Shown here piece by piece: positions 19,535-46,304 of a DNA stretch of 64,000 nucleotides. Made by a program: the position numbers and the translations under genes. The notes beneath the pieces were generated by a model that did not search any database, was not told the origin of the DNA, and was given only the letters and a program-made list of their open reading frames with translations. Every line of letters starts with the position of its first letter. Position 1 is the first letter of the stretch. The DNA comes from Planctomycetota bacterium (GTDB taxonomy: Bacteria > Planctomycetota > JACQVV01 > JASMLP01), in the NCBI GenBank assembly GCA_030748635.1, contig JASMLP010000135.1:11862-75861 (forward strand). Direction: 5' to 3'.

Positions 19535-19547
19535 CCGATGCTCCTTG

Positions 19548-29798: not shown

Positions 29799-31100
29799 AT
29801 GCACGTAGATTGCATGCGTGCTTGGGAAGCGGTGCTTGTTGCCATCGAGGTCGAACTCGGCGAGGCCCCCACCCATCTGTGGTTCGCGAATAGTCAACTC
29901 ATCTTGAGTGAGAATGATGAACTTCGGATATTGTTTCCGAATGCGTTCACTCGTGACTGGGTTCAACGCAATCACCTTCACAGAATCGAGCGACTTCTGG
30001 AAACGGTTCTCGGTCATTCAGTGCATGTCTCCTTTGGCCTGAACGAAACCCCACTCCCATCTCGTTCTTCGACACAAACCAGGAACCGGTCTCCAAGGAA
30101 CCGAAAACGCTGGAATCTTCAGGTAGAGCCCATTGCTGGCCCCTTCAACCAGGTCGCACTTTCATCCCTGCGTCACGCTCTGGAATTTCCCGGAGAAACC
30201 CAACCCATTTTGATCTACGGGGAAAACGGGTTGGGAAAAACCACTCTTCTGGACTGGTACGCAAGGGCCCTGAAATTTCGCCATCCTGGGTGGAGAATCA
30301 AACACCTTCGTGGCTCCACATACTCCCGTCGCTTCCAGCAAGCCCTCGTAGCGGGACAAATCCGGACCTTCCGACAAGTCTACCGGAAACTGGACGCGCT
30401 TCTTGTAGACGATATCCACGAACTATGCGGCAAGATGGGCACTCAACAAGAACTCATCCACACAATGGACCACCTGATCCGGCGTCAAGCCCCTATCCTT
30501 TTCACCAGTCGACATCAGCCCACAGATCTGGAACTGTTCTCTGAACCGTTACGGTGTCGCTTGCGAGGGGGACTTTCTCTCCCCATCGAACGCCCATGCC
30601 CTCAATCCATTCGGGATTACTTGAGCATTCGCTGCGGTTCCTCCGGCATCCACTTGGATTCTGAAGTCCTGGATTATCTATCGGAACAATTCAGAGGCCC
30701 ATTCTCACAGATCGACCATCTTGTCAAACACCTCTCTACTTTGAGTCAACAAAGTAATCGCCCTCCAGGAAAACGTATCGTCAAACGCGCGATCGAACTG
30801 TACATGGAACGGATCGAGAATCGGACTCTGGCTGGGATTTGCCGGATTACGGCTGAATTCTTTTCTTTCGATGTAGAATATTTGCGCGGTCGAACTCGTG
30901 AACGATCAATCACCTCTGCCCGAAGAGTCGCCATGTATCTGGCATCTGAACTCACGGAAGCCTCTCCTCGCGAAATCGGACGATATTTTAGCGATCGATC
31001 CCCTGCTACCGTGAAAGGAGCTTGTCGATGGGTTCGCTCTCACTTGAAGCAGGATTCTGCCTTTCGTGAACAGTGTAACGCCCTTCGAAAGATCCTCTGA
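29799..31100 (+). CDS. dnaA: Chromosomal replication initiator DnaA (divergent)
   Basis: Domain I-like N-terminus (LWFANSQLILSENDELRILFPNAFTRDWVQ). AAA+ core with Walker A GENGLGKTTLL and Walker B LLVDDIHEL. Domain IV reads SARRVAMYLASELTEASPREIGRYFSDRSPATV. Confidence 0.7.
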   Translation: MHVDCMRAWEAVLVAIEVELGEAPTHLWFANSQLILSENDELRILFPNAFTRDWVQRNHLHRIERLLETVLGHSVHVSFGLNETPLPSRSSTQTRNRSPRNRKRWNLQVEPIAGPFNQVALSSLRHALEFPGETQPILIYGENGLGKTTLLDWYARALKFRHPGWRIKHLRGSTYSRRFQQALVAGQIRTFRQVYRKLDALLVDDIHELCGKMGTQQELIHTMDHLIRRQAPILFTSRHQPTDLELFSEPLRCRLRGGLSLPIERPCPQSIRDYLSIRCGSSGIHLDSEVLDYLSEQFRGPFSQIDHLVKHLSTLSQQSNRPPGKRIVKRAIELYMERIENRTLAGICRITAEFFSFDVEYLRGRTRERSITSARRVAMYLASELTEASPREIGRYFSDRSPATVKGACRWVRSHLKQDSAFREQCNALRKIL

Positions 31101-31238: not shown

Positions 31239-32261
31239 TTGACCCCAACCACCCTGAACCATCTTCCGCATGTATGCGGCCACCAGACAGCCATCGATGG
31301 CCTCCTCCGCGCTTTTACTGAAAAGAATCTGCCTCCCGCAATCATCTTTTCGGGTCCGAAAGGGGTTGGAAAACGCCATCTTGCCCAAGTTCTGGCGAGT
31401 ACGATTTGTTGCCCCAATGCGCCAGAACAGGAACCTGAACCTTGTCCCCAATGTCAGCGTATGCTGTCGTCACGTCACCCAGACCTCCTACTCATTCAGC
31501 GTCCTCCTGATCGCCGTAACATCTCGATCAAAGATATACGTTCCTGCCTCCAGCAAATGCAGGAACGTCCCTGGGAGGCTCCCTATCGGATCGCAATCAT
31601 TGATGGGGTTGAAGACCTCTCGCTCCCCGCCGCCAACTGTCTTCTCAAAAGCCTTGAAGAGCCACAAACTTCCCAAATGTATTTGCTAATCACCCAATCC
31701 ATCCAGCGTACCCTAGCGACTATCCGCTCTCGATGTACGGAGGTCCCACTCGGTCCCATACCAGAAAATGAACTGATCCACTTTCTCCAAAATCGACACC
31801 ACATTAGCCTGGACCAAGCGACCCAAGCCGCCCAATCGAGTAAAGGGATTTTTCAACTAGCCCTGGAATCTTGTGACCAGGAACTTCGAGAAAATCGAAA
31901 AAAGCTTTTCGAACACTTGATTCGTTTCGAGTCGCATCCGGAATTCGCCGAAACCCTGATAGGTGAGATGAGGGGCCGTTCCAACGAAGAGCAACGCCAC
32001 GAAACCATCGCTCTGCTCAACCACCTCCTTGAAAAACTTCGCCTTGGCATTCGAGCATCCTTTCTGGGCGAAACCTTCGGCGACTCAGGAACAAAATCAC
32101 GTATCGACCACGCTCATTGGAGACAACTCTGCCATGTAGTAGAAAAGGTCTGCGAAGCGATCGCCGCTCTCACCGCAGGCGCTGCGACTCTGCTTACTCT
32201 TGAATCTCTGATCTTGGACCTGAACAATATCCTTCCCGCAAACATGGGGAGAACCGCATGA
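31239..32261 (+). CDS. holB: DNA polymerase III delta-prime subunit
   Basis: GPKGVGKRHLA, a zinc module (CCPNAPEQEPEPCPQCQ), LLKSLEEPQ and TIRSRC are present. Confidence 0.85.
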   Translation: MTPTTLNHLPHVCGHQTAIDGLLRAFTEKNLPPAIIFSGPKGVGKRHLAQVLASTICCPNAPEQEPEPCPQCQRMLSSRHPDLLLIQRPPDRRNISIKDIRSCLQQMQERPWEAPYRIAIIDGVEDLSLPAANCLLKSLEEPQTSQMYLLITQSIQRTLATIRSRCTEVPLGPIPENELIHFLQNRHHISLDQATQAAQSSKGIFQLALESCDQELRENRKKLFEHLIRFESHPEFAETLIGEMRGRSNEEQRHETIALLNHLLEKLRLGIRASFLGETFGDSGTKSRIDHAHWRQLCHVVEKVCEAIAALTAGAATLLTLESLILDLNNILPANMGRTA

Positions 32262-34687
32262 AAATGGCTACAGTCCGATTTGGCGCAATGCGACAAGTCG
32301 GTGAATTCTATTCCGAAAGTAACGAAGTCCTTCGAGGACAAAAGTGCATCATCCAGACACAAAGAGGCATTGAAGTGGGCACCGTTCTGGTAGCCACTCG
32401 CCCCGTCAAAGATCCCAGTATTCGGAAACAACAGGCAGGCAAGATCCTTCGAGTAGTCAACCAGCAAGACACCCAAAAAATCGACTTTATCGACCAGAGG
32501 GGCAAGTCGAAGGAAGCTCGGCTTTGCGAGGAAGCGATTCAGGAACTGGATTTGCAGATCAAACTCTCCTACACAGAATATCTTTTCGATCAACAAAAAG
32601 TGGTGTTCTACATTCAGTCAGAACAAAGAGTCGATCTTCGTCCACTGACATTAGCGCTTAAGGAAAAGATCCACATTCAAATCGTAATCAAACAGATTGG
32701 CGCCCGAGACGAAGCCCGACTCCTTGGGGACTGGAACGACTGCGGACGAGAACTTTGCTGCCGTAACCACCTTCAGCACCTCTCAAATGTCCCCATGAAA
32801 ATGGCGAAGAGCCAGAAAACCACCTTGGACCCGGCAAAAATATCTGGTCGCTGCGGTCGCCTCAAATGCTGCTTGCGCTACGAACACGACACCTATGTCG
32901 AGTTGAAACAACGCCTACCCAAAAAAGGGAGCAAAGTCCGAACCCGTCACGGTATGGGTGTCGTGATAGGAACAGATGTTCTTTCTCAAATGGTTCGAGT
33001 TCAAATTCAAGGACAACCCCGTTGCCTCTTGCCCGCGACAGAAGTGCTCCCTCTGGAAAAATCAAACGCTGGAAAATCCAGGTCCAGTCAGCTTTCGGAT
33101 CAAGATCAAAAGCGATATATCACGATCCCATTTTCCAATCTTGATTCGCCTATCACATTCACAACAGCCCACGCGGCAGTGGCGGCAGACTCCTATTACC
33201 GCCACCAAAAAAGCCTTGGACACTCCCCCCACTACTTGGCGGGAATCAAAGATCACTCCCGTTCTACCCAGCAGATTTCCCGTAGTGATGTGGACGAGAT
33301 GTTCTCCCGCGGAGATGCGTATCGAAATCAATTTCAAAAGCAGATGGATCTTCTTCAAATCCACCCGGACAAAATATTCCGGACCAAGTCCGAGGTTCAC
33401 AAAAAAACGGTCACCGATTTTTTCCGAAAACTCATCACCAACAATGACATTTATACATGTCGTGTGGATGGCCTTCACTGCACTCGATGCCACATAGCGA
33501 TTTCACACGACCCGCACCCCACATCCGTGCCTCCAAGCCAATGCCCCGACTGCCAGGGGGAACTCGAACCCATTCATGAAGACCCTTACTTCTTCCGGCT
33601 GAAAAAGTTCGAGAAACTTATCCTCCGCCACATTCAAAACCACTCCGACTTTATCAAACCTCAATTCCTGAAAATCGAACTGGAGAACCGGATCAAATCC
33701 GGCCTTAAAGATGTCATTGTAAGTCGCCCAACGTTTGAATATGGAATCCCCATTCCCGGAGAAACCGATCAAATCATTGCCGGATGGTTTGAAGGGCTGA
33801 TCGGTTATATCTCCGCCCTCGCGGACTCGGAGAACAACCAACGCTTCCTCGATTACTGGCCGGCCCACATCCAGATGGTTCAAAGTGAAACGGTCTGGAT
33901 GCATGCGGTGGCCTGGCCCGCCATGCTCCTGGCTGGCGAAGTTTCCCTTCCTGAAAGGATCTTCGTCACCGGTGACTGGAACGTGGATATCGACTCCGAC
34001 CATCCATCTCTCCCGGCTTCGACTTCCCCCTGCGAAATAGCAGAAATCTTCGGATCCGATTCCGTTCGCTATTTCCTGCTCTCCCACGTTCCCTTTGGCA
34101 TGAACGCCGTTTTCCAGGTGAGCGAGTTCCATAAGTCCATACAGCGCAACCTGATCCATGATCTCGACGGCCTAACCCAACGGACACTTTCGCTCACACA
34201 AAAGGTCTTTCACGGCACCATTCCTGACCCGGAAGGGTATGACGGCGATCCAGAAATAAGATCACTCGGCGAGCAGCTTTGCAAAGATATCCGTGAAAAT
34301 ATCGCAACTCTCCAGTTCAGTCGCATTCTCGACGAATTCGGCCATACCGTTCGATCTCTCCGATATCTGCTCGAGGAGAACAAACCTTGGACCTGGCCCC
34401 AGAAGGGCCCGGAGGGACTACCGGCCCGAAAATTCTTCTATTCTCTTCTCGAGTCACTCCGTATTCTCGCCCATCAAATCGGCCCCTTTCTCCCGACGAC
34501 TTCGGCAAGGATGCTTACTCTGTTAGGGATTTCACCGGAAAGTGAACTCTCGCCATCCGATGAGAAATGGGGTCAACTCGAAGTAGGAAAAACTCTCCCG
34601 CCCCCCTCTCCTCTGTTTCCTGAGTTCGAATCCGCGAAATTCGACACTCAATCCTCCTCTAACAACCCTCTCCGCAAATCATCATGA
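32258..34687 (+). CDS. Fusion protein: N-terminal PSP1/RicT (YaaT) domain plus C-terminal methionyl-tRNA-synthetase-like module with degenerate catalytic motifs
   Basis: 809 aa. The first ~290 aa carry the PSP1 C-terminal region (GDWNDCGRELCCRNHL...GRCGRLKCCLRYE). The remainder aligns to MetRS: a Zn knuckle (CTRCH...CPDCQ), DVIVSRPTFEYGIPIPG, WFEGLIGYISAL, WPAMLLAGE, VRYFLLSH and an anticodon-binding region (RYLLEENKPWTWPQ). At the HIGH-motif position the sequence reads PITFTTAHA, and at the KMSKS position it reads DSDHPS. Confidence 0.8.
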   Translation: MKMATVRFGAMRQVGEFYSESNEVLRGQKCIIQTQRGIEVGTVLVATRPVKDPSIRKQQAGKILRVVNQQDTQKIDFIDQRGKSKEARLCEEAIQELDLQIKLSYTEYLFDQQKVVFYIQSEQRVDLRPLTLALKEKIHIQIVIKQIGARDEARLLGDWNDCGRELCCRNHLQHLSNVPMKMAKSQKTTLDPAKISGRCGRLKCCLRYEHDTYVELKQRLPKKGSKVRTRHGMGVVIGTDVLSQMVRVQIQGQPRCLLPATEVLPLEKSNAGKSRSSQLSDQDQKRYITIPFSNLDSPITFTTAHAAVAADSYYRHQKSLGHSPHYLAGIKDHSRSTQQISRSDVDEMFSRGDAYRNQFQKQMDLLQIHPDKIFRTKSEVHKKTVTDFFRKLITNNDIYTCRVDGLHCTRCHIAISHDPHPTSVPPSQCPDCQGELEPIHEDPYFFRLKKFEKLILRHIQNHSDFIKPQFLKIELENRIKSGLKDVIVSRPTFEYGIPIPGETDQIIAGWFEGLIGYISALADSENNQRFLDYWPAHIQMVQSETVWMHAVAWPAMLLAGEVSLPERIFVTGDWNVDIDSDHPSLPASTSPCEIAEIFGSDSVRYFLLSHVPFGMNAVFQVSEFHKSIQRNLIHDLDGLTQRTLSLTQKVFHGTIPDPEGYDGDPEIRSLGEQLCKDIRENIATLQFSRILDEFGHTVRSLRYLLEENKPWTWPQKGPEGLPARKFFYSLLESLRILAHQIGPFLPTTSARMLTLLGISPESELSPSDEKWGQLEVGKTLPPPSPLFPEFESAKFDTQSSSNNPLRKSS

Positions 34688-35895: not shown

Positions 35896-38085
35896 TCAAC
35901 GCCCCGAAGGCTGGGGCTCTTTGAGAGTTTTATATTCGGGAATCGACTCCGGGTCGACCTGACTTCGCTTCAGTAATTCAGATATTGCTTTCTGCAGCAC
36001 GGTATCTTCAAGGTAGTCCGCCAGAGGCTTCTGACCCACTTCATCGGCCACCCGCTGCCGAACTCGACTCCTGAGCCATTGCCGAACTGTGTTTCGAGTG
36101 GCGTGAGTCTGGACCGATTCGTACCACTCGTCAAATCCCGGATATCGACCGGGGTCTTTCCCATCATTTTCCGCCAGTTGGCGGAACTGATCCTGGTGCG
36201 TTTCATAGTTGGATTTGAGGTATTTCTGAAATGCCTTCTGCTCGATCAACCGCTGCAAATATTCAGCATTCCAGGGACTCGACTCCTCCTCCTGGACTTC
36301 GAAATCGGGCTGAACTCCTCCTCGGTCCTTCTCCCGACCCGCATCATCGTACGTTCGATTCACACAGGTACCGTCCGGCAAAAAATATCTCGCGATCGTC
36401 ATCCTCAAACGGGCTTTGGGTCGCGACTTCAAAGGGAAAAGATGCTGTACAGTTCCCTTACCAAAAGATCGCCGCCCAACGAGAAAAGCGCGGCCGTGAT
36501 GATGCAACGCTCCGGCAACGATTTCAGAAGCGCTTGCGGTTCCCTCATCCAGCAAAATCACAACCGGAAATTCACCGTGAGTTTCTGGTGTCTTCGTCTT
36601 GTAGTCCTCACGAATACCGTAGGTTTTCGATCTTCCCTGGCTATATGCCACCAGCTTCCCCGCTGGCAGAAACAGATCTGAAACTTCGATCGCCTCACGC
36701 AAAAGACCTCCGCCATTTCCGCGCAGGTCAAAGACCAGAGCGGTCATCCCCTCTTTTTCCAACGCCTGGATAGCCGCCTTCAGTTCGTCGCTCGCTTTTT
36801 CTCCGAACTGAGTCATTTCTACGTAACCGATCCCACCTGGCAATAAGCGAGAATGAACACTCTGGACCTGAATGCGTCTCCGCACGACCTCGATATCTCT
36901 CGGTTTGACCCACCCGTCGCGCGCAACGGTTAACTGAACACTCGTCCCAGGCTTTCCTTTCACCCTCTTGACGATTTCCGTCATCCCTTTTCCAAAAGTG
37001 GACCACCCCTCAACCTTGATAATCCGGTCACCGGTCCGAATACCGGCCTCATAAGCTGGACCGGAGTAGATCGGACTGATCACGGTAAACCAAGTTCCAC
37101 GCATCCCCACATAGACCCCTATGCCCGCATATTCCCCCCCCAATCGCTCGAGAAACTCTCGCCATTCCGTGGGGGTCCAGTAAGAGCTGTGAGGATCCAG
37201 GGAACTGGCCATCCCCTTGGTCGCAGCAACCACGAGATCATCTACCGATTTTCGATCTCCGAGATCATGGTGCTCACGAATCATGCGCGATACTTCGTCC
37301 AGTATCGCCTCCTTATCGTCTGGACTCGCCTGATCCCCTTTCTTGTCCTTTTTCGGACGAGCCACTCCTGAGAAAAGAATTTCCTCATATTTTTTGATCA
37401 TAGCCTCCCTTGCCAGGTAACTACCGGCAAGACGTCCACGTGAGGTCGGCTCTTTTTGCAAACGGACGAGAATGGGACGAGCCGCCTCGATATTGTCTAT
37501 CTCAGCCAAGGCCAGAGCCGCCTCGTGCTGAAGACGTACGTCCTCACTATCCAACATCTTCTTGAGTACTCGACTTCCTTCAACATTATGGGCCGCTTTC
37601 CAGAGACTTTTTGCCAATCGAATCTTGATCGTGGGATCAAAGGTCGATCGGAGCAGATTGAGGATGTCCTGTTCGATCGACTGATCTCCCTCGATCCCCA
37701 ACAAATCTGCAGCATAACCGCGGACCTCGAGATCTTTTCCGTTTTCTGCCAGCTCCAGAAATATCGTAATTCCCTCTTCAGGCTGTCCCAGACGGCACAA
37801 AGCCTTTGCACCAGCAAGTCGAGCAGATTCCCGCGCTCCCCGCATCTCCCGACGTATGTACGGCACAGCGTCGGGACCAAGAGACTCCAATCGAAGGACC
37901 TCATTCCAGAGATCGACCTTGTCTCCTGCCAGTCGCTTAAAGGAACGGACGACTCTTCGCTCCAAGCGATCCGCTACCGGAGCCTCCGGCGCCTCCTGCG
38001 CCCGAATATCAGGCACCGGCATCCAAACCAGAACCACAAGGCCAAATATCGCTGACCAGAACAGGCGTGAAACAGGCTGAGCCAT
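35896..38085 (-). CDS. S41-family C-terminal processing peptidase with N-terminal HEAT-repeat array
   Basis: A PDZ domain precedes the S41 catalytic motifs (FDLRGNGGG, GTASASEIVAGAL, GKGTVQ). The N-terminal ~300 aa consist of HEAT/PBS-lyase-like repeats. I place the start at the internal Met (MAQPVSRLFWSAIFGLVVL, signal peptide) at 38085 rather than at the ORF start at 38232. Confidence 0.85.
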   Translation of the reverse strand: MAQPVSRLFWSAIFGLVVLVWMPVPDIRAQEAPEAPVADRLERRVVRSFKRLAGDKVDLWNEVLRLESLGPDAVPYIRREMRGARESARLAGAKALCRLGQPEEGITIFLELAENGKDLEVRGYAADLLGIEGDQSIEQDILNLLRSTFDPTIKIRLAKSLWKAAHNVEGSRVLKKMLDSEDVRLQHEAALALAEIDNIEAARPILVRLQKEPTSRGRLAGSYLAREAMIKKYEEILFSGVARPKKDKKGDQASPDDKEAILDEVSRMIREHHDLGDRKSVDDLVVAATKGMASSLDPHSSYWTPTEWREFLERLGGEYAGIGVYVGMRGTWFTVISPIYSGPAYEAGIRTGDRIIKVEGWSTFGKGMTEIVKRVKGKPGTSVQLTVARDGWVKPRDIEVVRRRIQVQSVHSRLLPGGIGYVEMTQFGEKASDELKAAIQALEKEGMTALVFDLRGNGGGLLREAIEVSDLFLPAGKLVAYSQGRSKTYGIREDYKTKTPETHGEFPVVILLDEGTASASEIVAGALHHHGRAFLVGRRSFGKGTVQHLFPLKSRPKARLRMTIARYFLPDGTCVNRTYDDAGREKDRGGVQPDFEVQEEESSPWNAEYLQRLIEQKAFQKYLKSNYETHQDQFRQLAENDGKDPGRYPGFDEWYESVQTHATRNTVRQWLRSRVRQRVADEVGQKPLADYLEDTVLQKAISELLKRSQVDPESIPEYKTLKEPQPSGR

Positions 38086-38261
38086 TGTGCTTTCCCTCAA
38101 TGGGTTGATGCAGACCGATACCGATCTGAGAAGAGTGAAATCAAAGTATACATTCGCCACACTAACGGAGGCAACGCCGGTTGAAGAGAAGAGCTGTTTG
38201 ACCCGCATAAAAGTCGATTCTACAATGCCCATCTTCTATCCATGATAGGCTCTTCCACTTT

Positions 38262-40757
38262 ATGAGTACTTTCCGCCCAGAAAGATACCGAAAAACTTGT
38301 ACCCCGTGGGTTTGGGTAATCATATTTCTCGTTTCCTGTAAGCAAGTTTCGGAACCGCGCCCCCTTCCGCCCTCTCCCGCCTCTAGCCAAACGAACATTC
38401 CAGTCGAAGGAGATCGAAACGACTCGTTCGAATTCAGAGCCCCTCCCCAGGAAAATCCCAATCAACTCTTGGAGCATGCTCGATTTGAGACAGCTCGCAC
38501 GCTAGGGTTAACACCCACGAATGCTGATGACATTCTACTACTCGAAACCTCAGAGCACTCCGGCAACAACCCTCCTCATGTTGTCCAAGAACAAATACGT
38601 ACCGGCCAACGAATACACGTTGTCAACCTACCGAAAAGCGAATTTCTCGCGCCAGGTTCTTCACCAGAAAACACCTACGTAAAGGCCTGGACCACCGGCC
38701 TTCTCGCCACTCGACTTGGCAACCGCAAACAGGACCTTCCTCTGTGGTTTATTCATGGCGCGCCACTCTATGCTGCCGACCAAGCCTCCATCGTGTTTGC
38801 TCAAACATTTGCCCGGGTCTTCGAAGGGAGCCCCCCTCCCTCGTTGAGCGCGAAGGACCCCATCAGCGCTTCGCGATCAGGAGCGATGGCGTTTGACCGT
38901 ATTCGCTCTTCTCACGGACCGAGCCGACTCAAACAATGGTTTACAAGCATTGTAGACGGCGGAATGACTTTTTCTTGTGCAACCAATCTCTATCTGAGAG
39001 AAGACCTCCAAACCCTTGAAACAGGCTATCGAAAACATGTTTGGGCCTACCTGAATTCGATGGGCGCCGGGCACATCGATCTACTGCAAACGGCTCGGTG
39101 CCTTCGAAAGCTGAACCAAAGCGAGAAGGCTCTCCAACTACTCGAGAATCCTCTGAGCCTCAGCCTACGTAGTCTGACCGAAACCTTTGTACATCCTCCT
39201 CTATTTTCCAATTTTCTACGCCTCGAAATCAGCCTTTGTCATTTCGAGTTAGGGAACCTGCAAACGGCTAAAATACAATTTGAAAAACTTCTCCAAGATC
39301 ACGATCCGACTTTCCCTTACTCGGCTCTCATCCGATTGCACCTGGCCCAAATCGAACGTACGCAGAAACACCCCATTCAAGCAATGCACCAATGCCTTCT
39401 CCTCCTCGAAGAAAATCCTCAGAGCCCCCACTACGCCGAAGCGACTCTTCTTCTGGCCAGAATCTATCGTGAACTCGGTCAGCATCAGAAATCGATTCGG
39501 CTTCTCCAGCAAATGCGAGAGGAGCATCCAGAACAGTTCGATTCTAGCGCGAATCTCCTGGAGGCCAAGATTCACATGGACCTGGGAGAATTTGCGGAAT
39601 CGAAGCGTATTCTGAATTCTTGGTCCCAAGAATCTCCACCCGACACTCTGAGCGAGATGAAAAATTGCGCTCGCGAAATCGACTCCCAACTAGAATCTCC
39701 GCTATCAAGAATCCGAACGGAACAAGTCCTTCGATGGATAGAAGATCTGGATTCCGAACATCACGCTGAAATTTCAGCCCGATTCCTACGAATTGGTCCT
39801 CCCATTGCGCCGATTCTTCGAGGACAGTTCCGCCGTCTTGACTCCGATCGAATCCGGCAACGAATTCTGAAAGTTCTCTACCGCTTAGACGATCCATCTA
39901 CGGAACAGTTGGCCCTTGAGGGGCTACGAAGCAATCAGCCACGACTCCTTCGAGAATCGATTAAGATCCTGATTTTTAAAGGGATGAAACCCAACATCTT
40001 ACTTCGACAGATACGAACCCTTGCCCGACAATCCACATCTTCTGAAATCGAACAGTGGACCCAGGAACTGGATCAAATCCTGGTGGGAACCTCTCCCGAG
40101 ATACGACGGAAACTCCCGAATCTATTGGCCTTGATTCATAGCAAAAATCCGACCAACCGCATGGAAGCGATTCGGATCCTCATTCAATACGATCACCCCG
40201 ACATCATCCCGCCCCTGGCCCATCTTCTGGGCGATTTCGACCCGGAAGTCCGCAATATGACCCTGATCGCCCTGGAACTCCATTGCGACCGAAGAGCTAC
40301 CGAAGCCCTGGTCAAATCCCTCTCTGATCCTCACCCTAGAAGACGCGCGCAATCCGCGAGGCTTCTGGGCCAATTAGCGACCCCTTCCATCTTGCCCTCC
40401 CTGACCCCCTTGACCCAAGACCCGGCATTTATTGTTCGTCGCGCGGCCCTGGAGTCTATTGCAAGAATCGACCTCCCGGAAGTTCGAGAAATCCTCATTC
40501 ACCATCTCTGTTTACCGAACTCCTCGATTCACCCCACTTGCACCTGGGGACTGCTTTCTCTTCCCAAAGACTCCACGATTGCCTCCATCTGCGGTACTCT
40601 CTTGAAGGACCAATTGCTTCCCACCGCTGAAGTTCGCCTCATTCGCTTACTCGAAACACTGATCGACCGCCCAATCCAATGGGATATTGAGTGGCCACAA
40701 GAAACCAAACAATCCCTCATCCGCAAACTACTAGACTGGTGGAAAACATCAAGATGA
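38262..40757 (+). CDS. Lipoprotein with TPR repeats and C-terminal HEAT (PBS-lyase-type) repeats
   Basis: 831 aa. A signal peptide with a lipobox-like LVSC is followed by TPR-like helices. The C-terminal half carries HEAT repeats (LLGDFDPEVRNMTLIALEL...DPHPRRRAQSARLLGQL...DPAFIVRRAALESIARI). The stop overlaps the next start as ATGA. Confidence 0.7.
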   Translation: MSTFRPERYRKTCTPWVWVIIFLVSCKQVSEPRPLPPSPASSQTNIPVEGDRNDSFEFRAPPQENPNQLLEHARFETARTLGLTPTNADDILLLETSEHSGNNPPHVVQEQIRTGQRIHVVNLPKSEFLAPGSSPENTYVKAWTTGLLATRLGNRKQDLPLWFIHGAPLYAADQASIVFAQTFARVFEGSPPPSLSAKDPISASRSGAMAFDRIRSSHGPSRLKQWFTSIVDGGMTFSCATNLYLREDLQTLETGYRKHVWAYLNSMGAGHIDLLQTARCLRKLNQSEKALQLLENPLSLSLRSLTETFVHPPLFSNFLRLEISLCHFELGNLQTAKIQFEKLLQDHDPTFPYSALIRLHLAQIERTQKHPIQAMHQCLLLLEENPQSPHYAEATLLLARIYRELGQHQKSIRLLQQMREEHPEQFDSSANLLEAKIHMDLGEFAESKRILNSWSQESPPDTLSEMKNCAREIDSQLESPLSRIRTEQVLRWIEDLDSEHHAEISARFLRIGPPIAPILRGQFRRLDSDRIRQRILKVLYRLDDPSTEQLALEGLRSNQPRLLRESIKILIFKGMKPNILLRQIRTLARQSTSSEIEQWTQELDQILVGTSPEIRRKLPNLLALIHSKNPTNRMEAIRILIQYDHPDIIPPLAHLLGDFDPEVRNMTLIALELHCDRRATEALVKSLSDPHPRRRAQSARLLGQLATPSILPSLTPLTQDPAFIVRRAALESIARIDLPEVREILIHHLCLPNSSIHPTCTWGLLSLPKDSTIASICGTLLKDQLLPTAEVRLIRLLETLIDRPIQWDIEWPQETKQSLIRKLLDWWKTSR

Positions 40758-42403
40758 CGCTGCTCCCGATTTTCCCTCACCAAACCGCTTCTACCCTCAT
40801 GCTTTATGTCTTGATCGTTAGCGGAGTATCGACCGTTAATTGTGACGCTGAGGAACCCGATTCCACCGATAAAGTGGTAACGTCCCAGAAAGCGTCACCA
40901 TCCAGCACAACTAAACGCCCCATCCGTCGTATTCGGCACGAAGATATCCACGGCCCAACACGTACCCAGAATATTGATCTTCGCCAGTGTTACCTGCTCG
41001 CCTTGAGCAACAACCTCGACCTCGAAATCGCCGGGATCGACCCCCGCATCCTTCTCACTCAGGTTCGTGAATCCCGGGCATCCAGAGACCCCTTGCTCAA
41101 CTTCTCGATTTCACGTACTCGGTCAAAATCACAGACCGGATCCTCTCTATCCGGAGCCAGCCTCCTCATATCGGACACGAATTCAGGCTCTCTGGGTATT
41201 TCCAAAACGAGTTGGCTCGGCACCAGTTACTCATTGAGCTTCGGCTACTCCCGTACTCATACCAACAACAGCTTCACCACACTCAATCCAGCCTACAACT
41301 CCGATATGACCTTTACGATTTCCCAGCCTCTCCTTCGCAATTTCGGCTTCGAACAGAACCGATCCACGCTGAAGCAGACCATTTTACAACACCAGCAATC
41401 CCTGTTTGATTTCCAGAAATCAGCCCTCGATGTTCTGCAGGAAGTCGAAAATAAATACTGGGACCTGGTGTTCACCCACGCGGACCTCCAGTTCAAAAAG
41501 GACTCGGTCACCCTGGCCAAAGATCTTTTACGCATAACTCGTATTCGTAAGCGAGTTGGTGAAGTCACTCGCATCGAAGAGTTAGAAGCGGAGGCAGGAG
41601 TAGCCAGCGCTGAACAGACCCTCATCCTGGCGGTGAAAGCCCTTTCCCAGGCACAGGATGATCTCAAGCGCCTCATCCATCCCCACGACATGTCATTTCT
41701 CTGGAATGTCACTCTCCTTCCCATGGCTGAGATCCCCATTACAGTACCTACCGTACCGGACCACCCGGTAGACGAACTGGCCTCCATTAACCGCGCCCTG
41801 GCCTGGCGCCCCTCCATCTTGCGCCTACGTCAACAAGTGGAGATCAGCACCCTGGCAGCCGAGGAAGCTCGAGGACTCCTTCTACCCAAGCTGGACCTGG
41901 AAGGGAGTGTCAAGGTCCACGGAAAAGCCGGCGACCGTGATGAAGCTTTCGATGACAACAAATCAGGGCGATTCTTTGACTGGAGCGCTTCATTGACTCT
42001 CGAGATTCCCATCGGCAACCGGGTGGCTCGAAATCAATATCAGCGTACGATGTACCAGCGTCAGCAAGCTCAGTCACAGGTTCATAGCGCAGAGCGTACC
42101 CTGATCCATGAAGTCCGAACTGCGATCCGAGACGTGACCAGCGCCACTCGCCAAATCAACGCCGCTAAAAAAGTGACCCGATTCAATCGGGACACCTATG
42201 AAGCCGAGAAAAAACGTTTTCAAGTCGGTCAGTCCACCCTTTTCCGCATCGATGAGTTCAGGGAGAAGTACACCCAAGCACGTACCAGTGAAGTCTCTTC
42301 CTACATCAACTATCGTAAGGCGCTCGCGCAACTAAAACGGTCCGAAGGTTCTTCCCTTTCGAGCCTTGAAGAGCTAGGCATCGACCTGAAAACCAGCAGA
42401 TGA
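40754..42403 (+). CDS. TolC-like outer-membrane efflux protein (OEP family)
   Basis: I place the start at the ATG at 40754 (MTLLPIF..., signal peptide). It has two OEP repeat regions with the characteristic ...LSQAQDDLKRLI / ...YRKALAQLKRSEG endings. The computed ORF starting at 40691 overlaps the upstream gene in another frame. Confidence 0.7.
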   Translation: MTLLPIFPHQTASTLMLYVLIVSGVSTVNCDAEEPDSTDKVVTSQKASPSSTTKRPIRRIRHEDIHGPTRTQNIDLRQCYLLALSNNLDLEIAGIDPRILLTQVRESRASRDPLLNFSISRTRSKSQTGSSLSGASLLISDTNSGSLGISKTSWLGTSYSLSFGYSRTHTNNSFTTLNPAYNSDMTFTISQPLLRNFGFEQNRSTLKQTILQHQQSLFDFQKSALDVLQEVENKYWDLVFTHADLQFKKDSVTLAKDLLRITRIRKRVGEVTRIEELEAEAGVASAEQTLILAVKALSQAQDDLKRLIHPHDMSFLWNVTLLPMAEIPITVPTVPDHPVDELASINRALAWRPSILRLRQQVEISTLAAEEARGLLLPKLDLEGSVKVHGKAGDRDEAFDDNKSGRFFDWSASLTLEIPIGNRVARNQYQRTMYQRQQAQSQVHSAERTLIHEVRTAIRDVTSATRQINAAKKVTRFNRDTYEAEKKRFQVGQSTLFRIDEFREKYTQARTSEVSSYINYRKALAQLKRSEGSSLSSLEELGIDLKTSR

Positions 42404-43551
42404 AACCGCGCCCACGTCGGAATATTTCCTTCCTGATCGTAACCACTCTGCTCCTCTTGGCCATCGGATTCGGGGTATCTCAAGAACTTAACCTCTATAC
42501 GAACCTGCGAATCTGCGCCAACCAGGACGGATGGACGCTGACCTTTCGGCAACAGAACCTGTTCGATGACGATTCCCAGTTTCACATATCGCAGGCCTCC
42601 CAAAAGTCTCCTACTCAATGGTCACCGCCAAGAAACTATCGGGGTAAATTCAGCGCGTCGGTCCTCGTGGGTTCTCAACTGACCATTTTCCAGAGCGAAG
42701 GAGCCAGTCTATATAAAAATGGAGACTGGATCGGAAACCTCGCCCTTCACCTTCCCTGGACCCCTCTCGACTCTCTATCCTTCGATCACGGCGTCACCCT
42801 GATCGGTACCCATGAGAACAAACTTAAGGCCGCGATTCTCGAAAAAGGACACTCCTACCCGATCACCACCCCTTCTTCGACGATATCCCAACACCCATTA
42901 GGCCCCATGAGATTGGCTACAATCGGCGAAACTCCCTGGGTATTTTGGGGTATGCGGAAATCGTCTTCACCACTTGCCACCCACTTATTAGCGTCCAAAA
43001 TTCTACGAATCACCACTCCATTCGACCCAATATTCTCAGTGGGATGGCCGGCCTCGAAGTTCCCCAACTTCCATTTCCTTGCGCTTAGCTCACCGATTTC
43101 GTTGCGTGTTCCCCACCCTTTCAAGAACATGACAGTCCTCTCTCCAACCTCGCCAAACCGGTCTCACGATTCGAATTGCTGGATTTTTCTGCATTCGCCG
43201 AGTTCCCCGCAATCACCAAACACCCTGAGTGTCACAGCCTTCGACGGCCAGACAATGGCCCGACCTAGTGTGGAGATCCCCCTGCCCAAACAGACTGTCC
43301 TGGCCCAGGAAGTCCTCTCCATCGAAGCTTTTCAGTCCAACTCCGAACTCTGCTTGCTCCTGGGAGGGATTGGCGGCATCAACATGATTTCAACCCAGAA
43401 AGTTCTGAGCGGAGAGTGGCTCGATCACGGAAAAATATTGGGCACCACCCAAACGCGGGAAAGCGGAATCTACTTCCTGATGATCGCTCTTCTTGTCCTC
43501 TCCCTCGCGATCCTATTTCGTGGGATCCGACTCATACGTTTCCAAAGATGA
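42400..43551 (+). CDS. Hypothetical membrane-anchored protein (TM helices at both N- and C-terminus), coupled to TolC-like gene
   Basis: 383 aa. The start overlaps the TolC-like stop by 4 nt. One hydrophobic helix sits near the N-terminus and one near the C-terminus (IYFLMIALLVLSLAILF). No known domain recognised. Confidence 0.45.
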   Translation: MKPRPRRNISFLIVTTLLLLAIGFGVSQELNLYTNLRICANQDGWTLTFRQQNLFDDDSQFHISQASQKSPTQWSPPRNYRGKFSASVLVGSQLTIFQSEGASLYKNGDWIGNLALHLPWTPLDSLSFDHGVTLIGTHENKLKAAILEKGHSYPITTPSSTISQHPLGPMRLATIGETPWVFWGMRKSSSPLATHLLASKILRITTPFDPIFSVGWPASKFPNFHFLALSSPISLRVPHPFKNMTVLSPTSPNRSHDSNCWIFLHSPSSPQSPNTLSVTAFDGQTMARPSVEIPLPKQTVLAQEVLSIEAFQSNSELCLLLGGIGGINMISTQKVLSGEWLDHGKILGTTQTRESGIYFLMIALLVLSLAILFRGIRLIRFQR

Positions 43552-43567: not shown

Positions 43568-45331
43568 TCAGGCCCGGTTCCTTCTCAGAAGATCTTCGAA
43601 ATTGTCCTGAGAAAGCGGTTTGCTGAAGAGAAACCCCTGAATTTGATTGCATCCGAGTCCGCTCAATAACTTCAGCTGCTCTTGGGTCTCTACCCCTTCG
43701 GCAACAACCTCCAAGTCCAGTCGATGAGCCATCTCAATCACCGACTCGATGAGCGCTTCTCCCCGCCCATTAGAAGGGAGGTCGGACACGAACGATCGAT
43801 CCAGCTTCAGAACATCCACGGGAAATCGCTTCAGAGAACTGAGAGAAGAATACCCTGTACCAAAATCATCAATCGCCATCCGAACCCCAAGTGAACGCAA
43901 TCCTGAAAGGTTCTTCAATATCTGTGACGATCCATTCGAGAGCACCCTTTCTGTGATTTCAATGACCAAGTCAGAAGGATCCATAACCTTCTCCTCGACC
44001 ACTTTTTTCACCTGTTCGACGATCGTCTCGTGATTCAGTTGACGTCCCGACAAATTGACAGAAACACGAACACCTGGGAATCCGTTATCTCTCCAATAAC
44101 AATGCGTGTGGCAGGCCTCCTCGAGCACCCACCCCCCTACACTGAGAATCTGGTCGCTCTCTTCTATGTACGAAAGAAAACGGGCGGGCGGAAGAATCCC
44201 TTCACCTGGATGGCTCCAACGCAACAAAGCCTCGACTCCAGTCACTCGACCTGTGGGCACATCAACCTGAGGCTGGTAGTGCAAAAGGAACTCCGACCGA
44301 CGTTCCGCATTTCTCAATCCGTTACGCATTGCCACTTTTTCTTTCACCGCGGCATGCATCGCGCGCGTAAAAAACGCATATCGGTCCCGGCCTTCTTCCC
44401 GCGCTCGGCACATCGCGATATCAGCGGCTCGCATCAGACCATGCTCCTCTGCCTCATCATCCGGATACATCGCGATCCCTACGCTAGCGCTCACAATCGT
44501 GCTCTCACCATTGAGTTCCATCGGGGCTGAAATCTCGTCTCGAATGTGATCCGCGAAAGTCGCAACAACATCGGGAGAATCTACCTCTTCCAGAAGTAGG
44601 AAAAAAACGTCCTCACCCACATGAGCCACATCTTCCTCATCGGGCACACACGAAACCAGACGATTGCCAACTTCCTTGAGTAGTTCATCCGCGATTCGAT
44701 AGCCGAGTGAGTCTTGCATATCACCAAAGTGGTCCAGATCGACGCAAAGAACCGCCAACCGCTTGTTCAGGCGCTCCGTTCGACTCAATGACCACTGAAG
44801 GCGATCCCCAAAAAACCGTCGGTTCGGACGTCCAGTACGCGATTCATATCTGGACAAACGATCAGCTTCCTCTTCGACCTTTTCCCTCCGAGCCACTTCA
44901 CGCCCCAAAGCGTCCCGGGTTTCCAGAAGTGTGTCATAAAGATCCCGGATCCTCAGCATCGCATGCATCTTCGCCGCAATAAGCTCTGGATTGAATGGCT
45001 TGGTAAAAAAGTCATCCCCACCACTGAGAATGCACTTTTCCAGCGCGTCCCCATCACTCAGGGCTGTCAGGAAGATCACGGGTACGAATCGTTCGCCAGA
45101 TAGTCGCTTTATTTCTGCCGCGGTTTCGTACCCATCCCTTTGCGGCATCATGACATCTAGCACAACTAGGTCAGGTCGCTCATCCATAAAGATTTCCAGA
45201 GCACGTTGACCATTGCCTGCCTCCGATACCGTACAACCTCGTTGCATGAGGAAGGATTTAAGTACCAATCGACTAGCGGGATCGTCCTCGGCAATCAGAA
45301 TATGCAAACCGTCCAAGGCTTCGCTGTTCAT
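43568..45331 (-). CDS. Response regulator with REC + degenerate GGDEF + EAL domains (c-di-GMP phosphodiesterase-type)
   Basis: The REC domain (ILIAEDDPASRLVL...DLVVLDVMMP) is followed by a GGDEF-like domain whose signature is GEDVF instead of GGDEF and which has no RxxD I-site. The EAL domain retains EALLRW, DDFGTGYSS, KLD and EGVE. Confidence 0.85.
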   Translation of the reverse strand: MNSEALDGLHILIAEDDPASRLVLKSFLMQRGCTVSEAGNGQRALEIFMDERPDLVVLDVMMPQRDGYETAAEIKRLSGERFVPVIFLTALSDGDALEKCILSGGDDFFTKPFNPELIAAKMHAMLRIRDLYDTLLETRDALGREVARREKVEEEADRLSRYESRTGRPNRRFFGDRLQWSLSRTERLNKRLAVLCVDLDHFGDMQDSLGYRIADELLKEVGNRLVSCVPDEEDVAHVGEDVFFLLLEEVDSPDVVATFADHIRDEISAPMELNGESTIVSASVGIAMYPDDEAEEHGLMRAADIAMCRAREEGRDRYAFFTRAMHAAVKEKVAMRNGLRNAERRSEFLLHYQPQVDVPTGRVTGVEALLRWSHPGEGILPPARFLSYIEESDQILSVGGWVLEEACHTHCYWRDNGFPGVRVSVNLSGRQLNHETIVEQVKKVVEEKVMDPSDLVIEITERVLSNGSSQILKNLSGLRSLGVRMAIDDFGTGYSSLSSLKRFPVDVLKLDRSFVSDLPSNGRGEALIESVIEMAHRLDLEVVAEGVETQEQLKLLSGLGCNQIQGFLFSKPLSQDNFEDLLRRNRA

Positions 45332-45401
45332 GACATCTCGAAATGGGAATAAAATTGATTTTGGGCTGCGAAGTGTACCAAAAGAAAGAGATCATCGGGG
45401 A

Positions 45402-46304
45402 TTATGAAACCGGCGCTATCCAGCGTAGACCCCAGGCAACCGGCCAGAGGACTCCGATCAAAAGAGCTGCCTCCCACTGTCCTCCCCCGAGAACCAGCGC
45501 AGAATCGACAAGGATAATCCCTCGAATCGCATGGCCAACGACCTTCCCGATTCCTTCTCCTCGCGCCTCCACTCGCAACGCACCAAACAGTGAAGGGAGG
45601 AGGGATAAACCCAGACAGAGGATCGGTATAACGACCCAAAAATTCGAAGCGCTGCAAAGGATCCAACCCACCGAGACCCCACTGAGCACCATTGCGCCGT
45701 ACAACCATCGTGGATTGTAGGGTCGATCTTCTAATTCTGCGATGAGGCAAATTGCCAAGACATATCCTCCCAGTGCCAAAATTGGCTCCAGCAGTACCCC
45801 CCCTTCCGAGACAATCATCCCCAGCCCGATATTCAACATCCGACAAGTTCCCATGGTGATCAATCCGAAAACCAAATGGGTCTTGGTCACAAAATTGTGA
45901 AGAAAAATCGTGCCGACGAGAACCGCTCCACAAACGATCGCTCGATCTCCGAGAAAGGCGCACCCCAAAAACCCCAGCAGCAATAACAGGATGACAAGAA
46001 ACCAGGCGCCACCGATTCCGATCTCACCGGAAGGCAGTGGGCGATCTTTCCGACTAAGACCGTCTCGCTTTCGATCCGCCAGGTCGTTTGTCACCATTCC
46101 CGCGGCATAAAATGCAACTCCAATCAGAGCGAGAAAAGCCCATGTTTCCCAAGAATCCCCGCTCCAGCGCCCTGAACCGAGAGCGTACCCAGCCCATGGA
46201 TCCGCGATGGCGGTTGCCAGAGCCGGAAATCGAGTCAAACGCAATACCACCCCGACCCGTTTCTTGAGTGTGAAGCGTTCTCCCGATTTCGATTCGGATT
46301 TCAA
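45402..46304 (-). CDS. UbiA-family aromatic/isoprenoid prenyltransferase
   Basis: A polytopic membrane protein with NDLADRKRD (the NDxxDxxxD motif) and RPLPSG. Confidence 0.7.
   Translation of the reverse strand: MKSESKSGERFTLKKRVGVVLRLTRFPALATAIADPWAGYALGSGRWSGDSWETWAFLALIGVAFYAAGMVTNDLADRKRDGLSRKDRPLPSGEIGIGGAWFLVILLLLLGFLGCAFLGDRAIVCGAVLVGTIFLHNFVTKTHLVFGLITMGTCRMLNIGLGMIVSEGGVLLEPILALGGYVLAICLIAELEDRPYNPRWLYGAMVLSGVSVGWILCSASNFWVVIPILCLGLSLLPSLFGALRVEARGEGIGKVVGHAIRGIILVDSALVLGGGQWEAALLIGVLWPVAWGLRWIAPVS

What the first reader, a model, noticed from the sequence alone, without database searches (positions are those of the whole stretch)
38262..43551. Coupled operon: TPR/HEAT lipoprotein, TolC-like channel and unknown bitopic membrane protein, without recognisable adaptor or inner-membrane pump
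Three genes overlap by ATGA at each junction: an 831-aa lipoprotein with TPR then HEAT repeats, a TolC-family outer-membrane factor, and a 383-aa protein with TM helices at both ends and no recognisable domain. No HlyD/RND/ABC partner is adjacent. Divergently upstream sits an S41 tail-specific protease that itself carries a HEAT array, and convergently downstream the REC-GGDEF*-EAL regulator. This looks like an envelope-spanning complex of unusual composition, possibly a lineage-specific secretion or OM-biogenesis machine.
Basis: partly seen in the sequence, partly recalled or inferred. Interest (0 to 1): 0.6.

Follow-up and report, generated by a model that had tools for sequence, protein, structure and literature searches.

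The report
TolC-like duct with two unusual partners
A small, rare group of planctomycete bacteria couples a TolC-type outer-membrane exit duct to a giant TPR/HEAT lipoprotein and an inner-membrane-anchored six-bladed beta-propeller instead of the usual adaptor and pump, so the duct has a new kind of partner set whose job is still unknown.

Summary
Three genes (38262-40757, 40754-42403, 42400-43551, + strand) are joined by ATGA start/stop overlaps.

- **g1:** an 831-aa lipoprotein with an unknown N-domain, then TPR, then HEAT repeats.
- **g2:** a non-lipidated TolC-family protein.
- **g3:** a 383-aa protein with no sequence-level family.

The trio recurs in the same order, with 4-nt overlaps, in four other lineages (one named Planctomycetota). 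A fifth contig has g2+g3 only. The g3 family has about six members among billions of proteins.

The g1-g2 pair alone occurs in Candidatus Uabimicrobium amorphum, in unrelated context. A g2-g3 pair occurs without an adjacent g1. So the duct is the hub and each partner co-occurs with it independently. No module locus carries an adaptor or pump. The nearest non-module ducts (27-32% identity) sit in ordinary MFP-RND or MacAB operons.

The S41 protease neighbour is conserved only within one shared syntenic block. The GGDEF-EAL gene is not conserved.

Best reading (about 0.45): g1 and g3 are dedicated partners of the duct. g1 supplies a lipid anchor in trans, as YbjP does for E. coli TolC, and the pump is encoded elsewhere. 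I rate it a new variant of a known kind.

The parts
38262..40757 (+). g1: 831-aa lipoprotein. Signal peptide plus lipobox Cys26; conserved N-terminal domain of unknown family (about aa 30-270); TPR region (about 320-465); HEAT region (about 520-800); conserved C-terminal WW motif.
   Evidence: - Pfam TPR and HEAT_2 hits.
- The PDB profile search hits only AlphaRep/HEAT and TPR (CpoB) proteins.
- Full-length homologs in L083 and L001 at 21-22% identity, with invariant Cys26 and W826/W827.
- Uabimicrobium homolog: hhalign probability 99.2%, E 1.6e-19 over 774 columns, with lipobox LTSC.
- The N-domain has no Pfam hit.
40754..42403 (+). g2: 549-aa TolC-family outer-membrane factor. Signal peptide without a canonical lipobox, a low-complexity N-terminal linker of about 40 aa, and two OEP repeats.
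   Evidence: - Pfam OEP E 4e-44 with 2 stretches.
- TIGR01844 scores 112.9 bits, below the 225 cutoff.
- The PDB profile search hits E. coli TolC at about 1e-10.
- 39-41% identical to the ducts of L083 and L001.
- The module ducts share a specific segment between the two repeats, 'P.DM.(F/W/Y)LWN(V/A)T', with a 5-residue insertion.
42400..43551 (+). g3: 383-aa inner-membrane protein. N-terminal TM helix (9-27), predicted six-bladed beta-propeller (31-348) and C-terminal TM helix (355-373), with only short basic cytoplasmic ends.
   Evidence: - Hydropathy profile.
- AlphaFold2 with a 6-sequence alignment: pLDDT 76.1, pTM 0.78, about 24 strands.
- Foldseek hits are all propellers.
- Only about six family members were found in searches of 1.8 and 5.8 billion proteins.
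38086..38261 (.). Divergent intergenic region between the probable true start of the S41 protease gene (Met50 of the long ORF, at 38085) and g1. It contains a sigma-70-like consensus match at 38198-38226 (+), TTGACC-17-TACAAT.
   Evidence: - Promoter scan gives 10 of 12 matches, but the number of sites in the region is not above the shuffled expectation, so this is only a consensus match.
- The S41 start is inferred from the signal peptide beginning at Met50 and from the alignment with the L083 protease.
35896..38085 (-). Neighbour, membership uncertain: periplasmic S41 C-terminal processing protease with an N-terminal HEAT region and a PDZ domain, transcribed divergently from g1.
   Evidence: - Pfam Peptidase_S41 9e-47, PDZ_6 and HEAT_2; TIGR00225 at 276.7 bits, above cutoff.
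- The same arrangement occurs in L083, with 49% identity.
- It is absent beside the Uabimicrobium g1-g2 pair.
- Its HEAT region shows no specific similarity to the g1 HEAT region.

Best explanation
The three genes encode a lineage-restricted partner set for a TolC-type exit duct.

- **g2** is a trimeric, non-lipidated outer-membrane duct. It descends from the same clade as ducts that serve MFP-RND and MacAB pumps.
- **g1** is a lipoprotein made in fixed ratio with the duct through translational coupling. It binds the duct's periplasmic surface and supplies a lipid anchor in trans. Its long TPR/HEAT solenoid offers a platform that reaches into the periplasm.
- **g3** places a six-bladed propeller directly on the periplasmic face of the inner membrane. 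It acts as the inner-membrane docking or recognition element for the g1-g2 assembly.
- **Energy source:** none is encoded in the module, so transport through the duct is most likely driven by a pump encoded elsewhere in the genome.

Shown here: the gene coupling, the domain and fold assignments, the conserved co-occurrence and the absence of adaptor or pump genes. Inferred: the physical contacts, the lipid-anchor role and the location of the pump.
For: 1. **Coupling is conserved.** 4-nt start/stop overlaps occur at both junctions in the window, L083 and L085, and the gene order is conserved in five lineages. This holds although housekeeping proteins of the window and L083 are only 35-54% identical, g1 22% and g3 about 23%.
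2. **The duct is the hub.** The g1-g2 pair occurs alone in Ca. Uabimicrobium amorphum among unrelated housekeeping genes. A g2-g3 pair occurs in L002 with no g1 within the 283 bp available upstream.
3. **Specificity.** Of the roughly 160 contigs retrieved by the two duct-profile scans (ducts of about 27-33% identity), only the already-known module locus (L003 = L001) and Uabimicrobium (L040) carry g1-like genes. Apart from L003, none carries a g3-like gene.
4. **Lipidation pattern.** g1 is a lipoprotein in all four homologs. The module ducts end their signal peptides in AxA-Q-type sites without a lipobox. Two MacAB-linked Planctomycetota relatives carry a G-C-S lipobox-like site. This mirrors non-lipidated E. 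coli TolC with its lipoprotein partner YbjP (PMC13082787, PMC13095208).
5. **A duct segment tracks g1.** Ducts paired with g1 share a distinctive segment between the two OEP repeats. It is partly kept in Uabimicrobium and absent from L002 and from pump-linked relatives.
6. **Canonical ancestry.** The nearest non-module ducts lie in canonical OEP-MFP-RND or MacA-MacB-OEP operons, so g2 derives from genuine exit ducts.
7. **g3 geometry.** The propeller begins 3-4 residues after TM1 and ends 2-3 residues before TM2, so it must sit on the inner membrane.
Against: - No physical interaction was tested.
- The family is tiny (about six lineages), so co-occurrence statistics are thin and covariation is not usable.
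- The window, L083 and L001 share wider synteny (MetRS to g3, and UbiA downstream). Part of the conserved order may therefore reflect common descent rather than selection.
- No orphan pump operon was identified, because only 64 kb of this genome is available.
- g1 is about five times larger than YbjP and unrelated in sequence, so the analogy is functional only.
Confidence: 0.45

Rival explanations
1. Self-contained machine. g1, g2 and g3 alone form a new envelope-spanning apparatus, either a passive or proton-independent conduit or an OM-IM tether. The inner-membrane propeller and the TPR/HEAT solenoid replace the adaptor and pump, and no canonical pump is involved.
For: - No adaptor or pump gene lies in any module locus, including 20 kb around L083 and the whole 64 kb window.
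- Together the three proteins cover the outer membrane, the periplasm and the inner membrane.
- Both junctions are translationally coupled.
- Planctomycetes have protein complexes of unknown composition that link the outer and cytoplasmic membranes (PMC5394234).
Against: - g3 has almost no cytoplasmic part (about 8-10 residues at each end) and no ATPase or proton-channel features, so there is no visible way to energise transport or to open a TolC-type aperture.
- Uabimicrobium keeps g1-g2 without g3, so the trio is not an obligate unit.
- TolC-family ducts are commonly encoded apart from their pumps, and several related ducts found here are orphans among housekeeping genes.
Confidence: 0.2
2. 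Protease-adaptor reading. g1 is mainly the lipoprotein adaptor of the divergently encoded S41 protease, as NlpI is for Prc and LbcA is for CtpA. It controls turnover of envelope proteins, and g2 and g3 are clients or are merely co-expressed.
For: - An outer-membrane TPR lipoprotein paired with an S41 C-terminal processing protease is an established partnership (PMC6050968, PMC8764530).
- The protease is divergently adjacent in both the window and L083.
- Both proteins are periplasmic.
Against: - The adjacency is seen only in two genomes that share an 8-gene syntenic block, so it is one observation rather than two.
- The Uabimicrobium g1-g2 pair has no S41 gene within 3 kb upstream or 6 kb downstream.
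- g1 is translationally coupled to the duct, not to the protease.
- The HEAT regions of the two proteins show no specific similarity.
- The L001 and L085 contigs are cut, so they cannot inform.
Confidence: 0.15
3. Co-transcription without a complex. The three envelope proteins share an operon for regulatory convenience and act separately: an orphan housekeeping duct, a scaffold lipoprotein and a membrane-anchored binding or sensor propeller.
For: - Repeat proteins (TPR, HEAT, propellers) are abundant and promiscuous in these genomes. The window itself has several, for example 13964-15022, 22960-25857 and 57207-59681.
- g1 and g3 evolve far faster than g2.
Against: - Each partner independently recurs with the duct in different genomic contexts.
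- The 4-nt overlaps persist despite about 20% identity in g1 and g3.
- A duct-specific sequence segment tracks the presence of g1.
Confidence: 0.2

Closest known systems
TolC-YbjP (E. coli non-lipidated TolC with its lipoprotein partner; PMC13082787, PMC13095208)
   Same: A non-lipidated TolC-family duct is paired with a separate lipoprotein. The lipoprotein could supply the membrane anchor that many homologous ducts carry themselves. The partner is not required to be a pump component.
   Different: - YbjP is a small DUF3828 protein encoded away from tolC. g1 is an 831-aa N-domain/TPR/HEAT protein with no DUF3828 match, and it is translationally coupled to the duct.
- Binding is demonstrated for YbjP and only inferred here.
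Tripartite MacAB-TolC and MFP-RND-OMF efflux pumps
   Same: g2 belongs to the same OEP family. Its nearest non-module relatives (27-32% identity) are the duct genes of such operons.
   Different: - There is no membrane-fusion protein and no ABC, RND or MFS pump in any module locus.
- The positions beside the duct are taken by a TPR/HEAT lipoprotein and a TM-propeller-TM protein.
- g3 shares with MacB/FtsX only the bare motif of a periplasmic domain between two TM helices.
NlpI-Prc and LbcA-CtpA (TPR lipoprotein adaptor plus S41 protease; PMC6050968, PMC8764530)
   Same: A TPR-containing lipoprotein is encoded next to a periplasmic S41/PDZ protease.
   Different: - g1 is operonic with a duct, not with the protease.
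- The adjacency is not kept in Uabimicrobium.
- g1 carries extra N-terminal and HEAT regions.
- The interaction is untested.
Outer-membrane machines that combine a TPR lipoprotein, a beta-propeller and an outer-membrane channel (BAM: BamA/BamB/BamD; Tol-Pal: TolB/CpoB/Pal). Comparison from my own knowledge.
   Same: The same three building blocks appear: TPR lipoprotein, propeller and outer-membrane protein. The best Foldseek hit of g3 is a propeller subunit of the P. gingivalis BAM complex.
   Different: - The channel here is an alpha-barrel TolC type, not an Omp85 or OmpA type.
- The propeller is anchored in the inner membrane by two TM helices, not lipidated or soluble.
- The Foldseek match is generic (TM 0.47, 12% identity).
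Six-bladed sialidase/BNR, Kelch, NHL and fucose-lectin propellers
   Different: - Identity is 5-10%.
- There is no conserved Arg triad or Tyr/Glu/Asp catalytic set. Only one periplasmic Arg is invariant, and Y105 is the only invariant candidate among Tyr, Glu and Asp.
- The TM-anchored hairpin topology differs.

Membership tests
TolC / outer membrane factor (Pfam OEP PF02321) | Two tandem OEP repeats detected above the family threshold | tested here: met
   OEP E 4.3e-44, 151 bits against a cutoff of 22, with 2 stretches. The PDB profile search hits E. coli TolC at about 1e-10.
TolC / outer membrane factor (Pfam OEP PF02321) | Membership of the curated type I secretion TolC subfamily (TIGR01844) or the NodT lipoprotein subfamily (TIGR01845) | tested here: not met
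   TIGR01844 scores 112.9 bits against a cutoff of 225.15. TIGR01845 scores 68 against 210.05. There is no canonical lipobox.
Tripartite efflux or type I secretion system | A membrane-fusion (HlyD/MFP) gene and an inner-membrane ABC, RND or MFS pump gene encoded with the duct | tested here: not met
   - None in the 64 kb window.
- None in L083, L001, L085 or L040.
- Both are present next to non-module relatives.
Periplasmic adaptor (HlyD/MFP), considered for g3 | Lipoyl, alpha-hairpin and beta-barrel domains, with a single N-terminal anchor | tested here: not met
   No Pfam or NCBIfam hit even at E = 10. The predicted fold is a six-bladed propeller with TM helices at both ends.
Sialidase / BNR propeller, considered for g3 | Six-bladed propeller fold | tested here: met
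Sialidase / BNR propeller, considered for g3 | Conserved catalytic residues (Arg triad, nucleophile Tyr with Glu, acid/base Asp) and repeated Asp-boxes | tested here: not met
   The invariant columns of the 6-sequence alignment include only one periplasmic Arg (R171) and one Tyr (Y105), with no invariant Asp or Glu. Identity to sialidases is 5-10%.
YbjP-type lipoprotein partner of TolC (DUF3828) | Lipoprotein signal peptide | tested here: met
   The lipobox Cys is invariant in the window, L083 and L001. Uabimicrobium has LTSC.
YbjP-type lipoprotein partner of TolC (DUF3828) | DUF3828 domain | tested here: not met
   No such Pfam hit for g1, either full length or the N-domain alone.
YbjP-type lipoprotein partner of TolC (DUF3828) | Direct 3:3 binding to the periplasmic surface of the duct | not testable with these tools
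   It needs a multimer prediction or biochemistry.
NlpI/LbcA-type adaptor of an S41 protease | TPR lipoprotein that accompanies an S41 protease | tested here: inconclusive
   The protease is adjacent in the window and in L083, but the two share a syntenic block. It is not adjacent in Uabimicrobium. Binding is untestable here.
Peptidase_MA_2 (PF13485), considered for the g1 N-domain | HExxH zinc motif and a profile match | tested here: not met
   - No Pfam hit, and no HExxH in any of the four homologs.
- hhalign against the HELAH-containing domain of the window protein 22960-25857 lines up 'LPxWFxxGL' with 'VPRWFTEGL', but at 4% probability, E 0.01.
- This is a lead for a degenerate domain, not membership.

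The most novel reading that the evidence does not exclude
The trio is a previously undescribed, pump-less envelope-spanning assembly of Planctomycetota. A TolC-type alpha-barrel is held to the cytoplasmic membrane through a TPR/HEAT lipoprotein and an inner-membrane propeller. It would act as an OM-IM 'press-stud' tether or a gated conduit. It could then be a molecular component of the membrane-contact structures seen by tomography in planctomycetes, whose composition I did not find reported (PMC5394234).
Probability: 0.12. Interest if true: 0.85.

Novelty: new variant of a known kind. Interest (0 to 1): 0.55.

Why it matters
TolC-family ducts are normally understood only as the outer third of adaptor-plus-pump machines. 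The discovery of YbjP in 2026 showed that even E. coli TolC has an overlooked lipoprotein partner.

Here a duct is genetically welded to two proteins of entirely different architecture: a giant solenoid lipoprotein and a membrane-anchored propeller. Each of them also pairs with the duct on its own in other lineages.

If they bind the duct, they define a new class of TolC accessory factors. They would also give a handle on how the outer and inner membranes are connected in Planctomycetota, a phylum whose envelope organisation remains poorly understood. One carrier of the g1-g2 pair, Ca. Uabimicrobium amorphum, has a complete genome and, to my knowledge, is kept in laboratory culture, so the idea may be testable.

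Tried and rejected
- **g3 as a diverged HlyD adaptor:** rejected on fold and topology.\n- **g3 C-terminal helix as a cleaved sorting signal** (PEP-CTERM, GlyGly-CTERM or similar; a rhomboid gene lies nearby in L083): rejected. Homologs carry 25-45 further residues, or a whole RDD domain, after the helix.\n- **g3 as an active sialidase:** rejected, because no catalytic set is conserved.\n- **REC-GGDEF-EAL as part of the unit** (a Lap-like c-di-GMP circuit): rejected, because it is not conserved in any relative.\n- **Paralogy of the S41 and g1 HEAT regions:** no signal.\n- **The 374-aa ORF after the Uabimicrobium duct as a diverged g3:** rejected. hhalign gives 0.1% probability and, on inspection of the translation, the sequence looks like a NifS-type cysteine desulfurase, followed by a MutS-like ORF.\n- **First single-sequence AlphaFold run of g3:** useless, pLDDT 38.\n- **Searches for more members:**\n - The genome scan with g2 alone found nothing.\n - The genome and metagenome scans with duct profiles used generic TolC patterns and returned mostly ordinary ducts.\n - A profile search with the g3 family added only one new sequence.\n- **Other attempts:** the afdb50 fold library was unavailable. 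Rfam and tRNA scans of the window found nothing.


Full report
**1. What is in the sequence**

The three ORFs are exactly as reported: 38262-40757 (g1, 831 aa), 40754-42403 (g2, 549 aa from the ATG inside the overlap) and 42400-43551 (g3, 383 aa), all on the + strand. Both junctions read ATGA, so each start codon overlaps the preceding stop.

The long ORF call for the upstream divergent S41 protease (35896-38232) probably starts 49 codons later, at 38085. A signal peptide begins there, and the alignment with the L083 homolog begins there too. That leaves a 176-bp divergent intergenic region with one sigma-70-like consensus match, which is not statistically remarkable. g3 ends 16 bp from the stop of the convergent REC-GGDEF-EAL gene.

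**2. Domain checks**

- **g1:** Pfam gives TPR (about aa 320-465) and HEAT_2 (about 520-750). A PDB profile search hits only designed HEAT/AlphaRep and TPR proteins, plus CpoB.
  - Its first 270 residues match no Pfam model but are conserved in homologs.
  - A lipobox cysteine is invariant and also present in the Uabimicrobium homolog.
- **g2:** It is a clear OEP/TolC-family protein (Pfam 4e-44, two repeats; E. coli TolC in PDB). It scores below the curated NCBIfam subfamily cutoffs and lacks a canonical lipobox.
- **g3:** It has no Pfam or NCBIfam match even at E = 10. Hydrophobic helices lie at 9-27 and 355-373, with basic residues at both extreme ends.
- **Neighbours:** The protease is S41 + PDZ + HEAT_2. 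The downstream gene is REC-GGDEF-EAL with a degenerate GGDEF motif.
- **Pumps:** No HlyD, RND or MacB gene exists anywhere in the window.

**3. The third protein**

An exhaustive phmmer search of 1.8 billion representatives found only three relatives. Word-seeded searches of 5.8 billion proteins added two more. The family is therefore extremely rare.

A single-sequence AlphaFold model was uninformative (pLDDT 38). With the six-sequence alignment the model reached pLDDT 76 and pTM 0.78. It shows a TM helix, about 24 beta-strands in four-stranded sheets, and a second TM helix.

The propeller starts 3-4 residues after the first helix and ends 2-3 before the second, so it must sit directly on the periplasmic face of the inner membrane. 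The N-terminal helix could instead be a cleaved signal peptide, and I cannot decide that here. The C-terminal helix is a real anchor and not a sorting signal, because homologs continue for 25-45 residues or into an RDD domain.

**4. Conservation of the unit**

| Locus | Source | Arrangement |
|---|---|---|
| L086/L087 | Tara Oceans contigs, 91% g3 identity | g2 (cut)-g3 present |
| L083 | GCA_964467555.1 | Full trio, GTGA and ATGA overlaps |
| L001 = L003 | Groundwater Planctomycetota MAG | Same order, g1 cut at contig start |
| L085 | Logan contig | HEAT-repeat fragment ending like the g1 homolog of L083, then g2 and g3, GTGA and ATGA overlaps |
| L002 | GCA_054010455.1 | g2-g3 only, g3 fused to a C-terminal RDD domain; no g1-like ORF in the 283 bp available upstream |
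| L040 | Candidatus Uabimicrobium amorphum, complete genome | g1 homolog directly upstream of a duct; no g3, no S41 |

- A 99%-identical duct fragment also comes from a Tara mesopelagic sample.
- The Uabimicrobium g1 homolog is full length (hhalign probability 99.2%, E 1.6e-19, 774 columns; hmmsearch 5.6e-34). Its flanking genes are GpsA, an M24 peptidase, a NifS-like ORF and a MutS-like ORF; the last two are identified by inspection of the translations.
- Among the roughly 160 contigs retrieved by the two duct-profile scans, only L003 (the known module locus) and L040 have a g1-like gene, and apart from L003 none has a g3-like gene.

So each partner co-occurs with the duct independently, and the duct is the hub.

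**5. What the duct is related to**

The nearest non-module ducts (27-32% identity) include members of canonical operons:
- OEP-MFP-RND (L170-L172).
- MacA-MacB-OEP in Planctomycetota MAGs (L168, L169).
- HlyD- or MacB-adjacent ducts in other phyla (L007, L008, L012).
- Several orphans among housekeeping genes.

g2 therefore descends from genuine exit ducts.

The two MacAB-linked Planctomycetota relatives carry a G-C-S lipobox-like site. The module ducts and the Uabimicrobium duct end their signal peptides in AxA-Q-type sites.

Ducts paired with g1 also share a distinctive segment between the two OEP repeats, 'P.DM.(F/W/Y)LWN(V/A)T', plus a 5-residue insertion. It is partly retained in Uabimicrobium and absent in L002 and in pump-linked relatives. 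From my knowledge of TolC structures this inter-repeat segment contributes to the equatorial domain. That placement was not modelled here.

**6. Neighbours**

The S41 protease is divergently adjacent in the window and in L083. These two loci share an eight-gene block (PSP1-MetRS, a 127-140-aa ORF, Cu-oxidase_4, S41, g1, g2, g3, and UbiA further on) at 35-54% identity for housekeeping genes. That counts as one observation. The protease is not near the Uabimicrobium pair. The REC-GGDEF-EAL gene is replaced by other genes in every relative.

**7. Mechanism**

The best-supported reading is that g1 and g3 are dedicated partners of a TolC-type duct.
- g1 is a lipoprotein made in step with a non-lipidated duct. 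This parallels E. coli TolC and its lipoprotein YbjP, which mimics the lipid anchor of lipidated homologs (PMC13082787, PMC13095208). g1 is unrelated to YbjP and far larger.
- Its TPR/HEAT solenoid could reach toward the inner membrane, where the g3 propeller offers a docking surface.
- No component can supply energy, so I infer that a pump encoded elsewhere drives transport.

I give this reading about 0.45. The rivals are:
- A self-contained pump-less machine or tether (0.2).
- g1 acting chiefly as an adaptor for the S41 protease, as LbcA or NlpI do (0.15; PMC6050968, PMC8764530).
- Co-transcription without a complex (0.2).

All physical contacts are inferred, and none was tested.

**8. Leads left open**

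The g1 N-domain aligns weakly with the Peptidase_MA_2 domain of another window protein, exactly at 'LPxWFxxGL' against 'VPRWFTEGL'. It lacks HExxH in all homologs. It may be a zinc-less relic of an MA-clan peptidase, but the statistics are poor (4% probability).

**9. Verdict**

This is a rare, conserved variant of a TolC-based envelope system with two partner proteins of new architecture. Its function is unproven. Interest is moderate to high (0.55). The most novel surviving reading, a pump-less OM-IM linking assembly in Planctomycetota, has a probability of about 0.12.

Noticed in passing
window 18353-22724 (-): An Mla-type operon: MlaE permease (20389-21192), ABC ATPase (19548-20354) and a 393-aa MlaD-domain protein (18353-19534). 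It is preceded by an overlapping 511-aa ORF (21189-22724) with no Pfam match. It is the only membrane ABC system in the window and lies 17 kb from the duct.
   Followed up: partly
window 32258-34687 (+); L083 3-1928: An 809-aa fusion of a PSP1 C-terminal domain with a class I methionyl-tRNA synthetase, downstream of holB (31239-32261). The L083 ORF in the same position is 44% identical over about 630 residues from window residue 163 onward. Whether it also carries the PSP1 domain cannot be told, because that contig is cut at its start.
   Followed up: partly
window 22960-25857 (+): A 965-aa secreted protein with long TPR arrays flanking a Peptidase_MA_2 domain that has an intact HELAH motif. 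It is a possible active cousin of the zinc-less N-domain of g1.
   Followed up: partly
window 35896-38232 (-): The mechanical ORF for the S41 protease is probably 49 codons too long. A signal peptide starts at Met50 (38085), and the L083 homolog aligns from there.
   Followed up: yes
window 45328-46304 (-): The 211-aa ORF 45328-45963 has no family and overlaps a 300-aa UbiA prenyltransferase ORF (45402-46304) in another frame. The UbiA ORF is the likely real gene. UbiA also lies downstream of the module in L083 and L001, which shows wider shared synteny.
   Followed up: partly
L002 1981-3462: The most divergent g3 homolog (P0003, 493 aa) carries a C-terminal RDD domain (Pfam 6e-15) after the second TM helix. 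It is followed by polysaccharide lyase genes. The fusion hints that the g3 membrane anchor can be extended into a multi-pass membrane module.
   Followed up: partly
window 7207-11819, 26958-29654 and 43568-45331: The window contains several signalling genes, some plausibly linked to c-di-GMP:
- A 1231-aa Ser/Thr kinase with a C-terminal PA14 domain.
- An overlapping PilZ-domain protein.
- An 898-aa HD_5 protein (possibly HD-GYP-type).
- The REC-GGDEF(degenerate)-EAL protein.
   Followed up: no
window 29799-31100 and the whole window: A DnaA homolog is followed by holB. GC skew is negative in every 2-kb bin across all 64 kb (-0.07 to -0.27) with no sign change at dnaA, so no replication origin is evident from skew. 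The skew is also strong regardless of gene strand.
   Followed up: no
window 57207-59681 (-), 60174-60728 (-) and 13964-15022 (+): Further repeat and regulatory genes typical of Planctomycetota: an 824-aa all-HEAT protein (HEAT_2 5e-52), an ECF sigma factor that also matches PF07638, and a 352-aa WD40 propeller.
   Followed up: no
window 1-64000: No tRNA or tmRNA gene and no Rfam family at gathering threshold were found in the entire 64 kb.
   Followed up: yes
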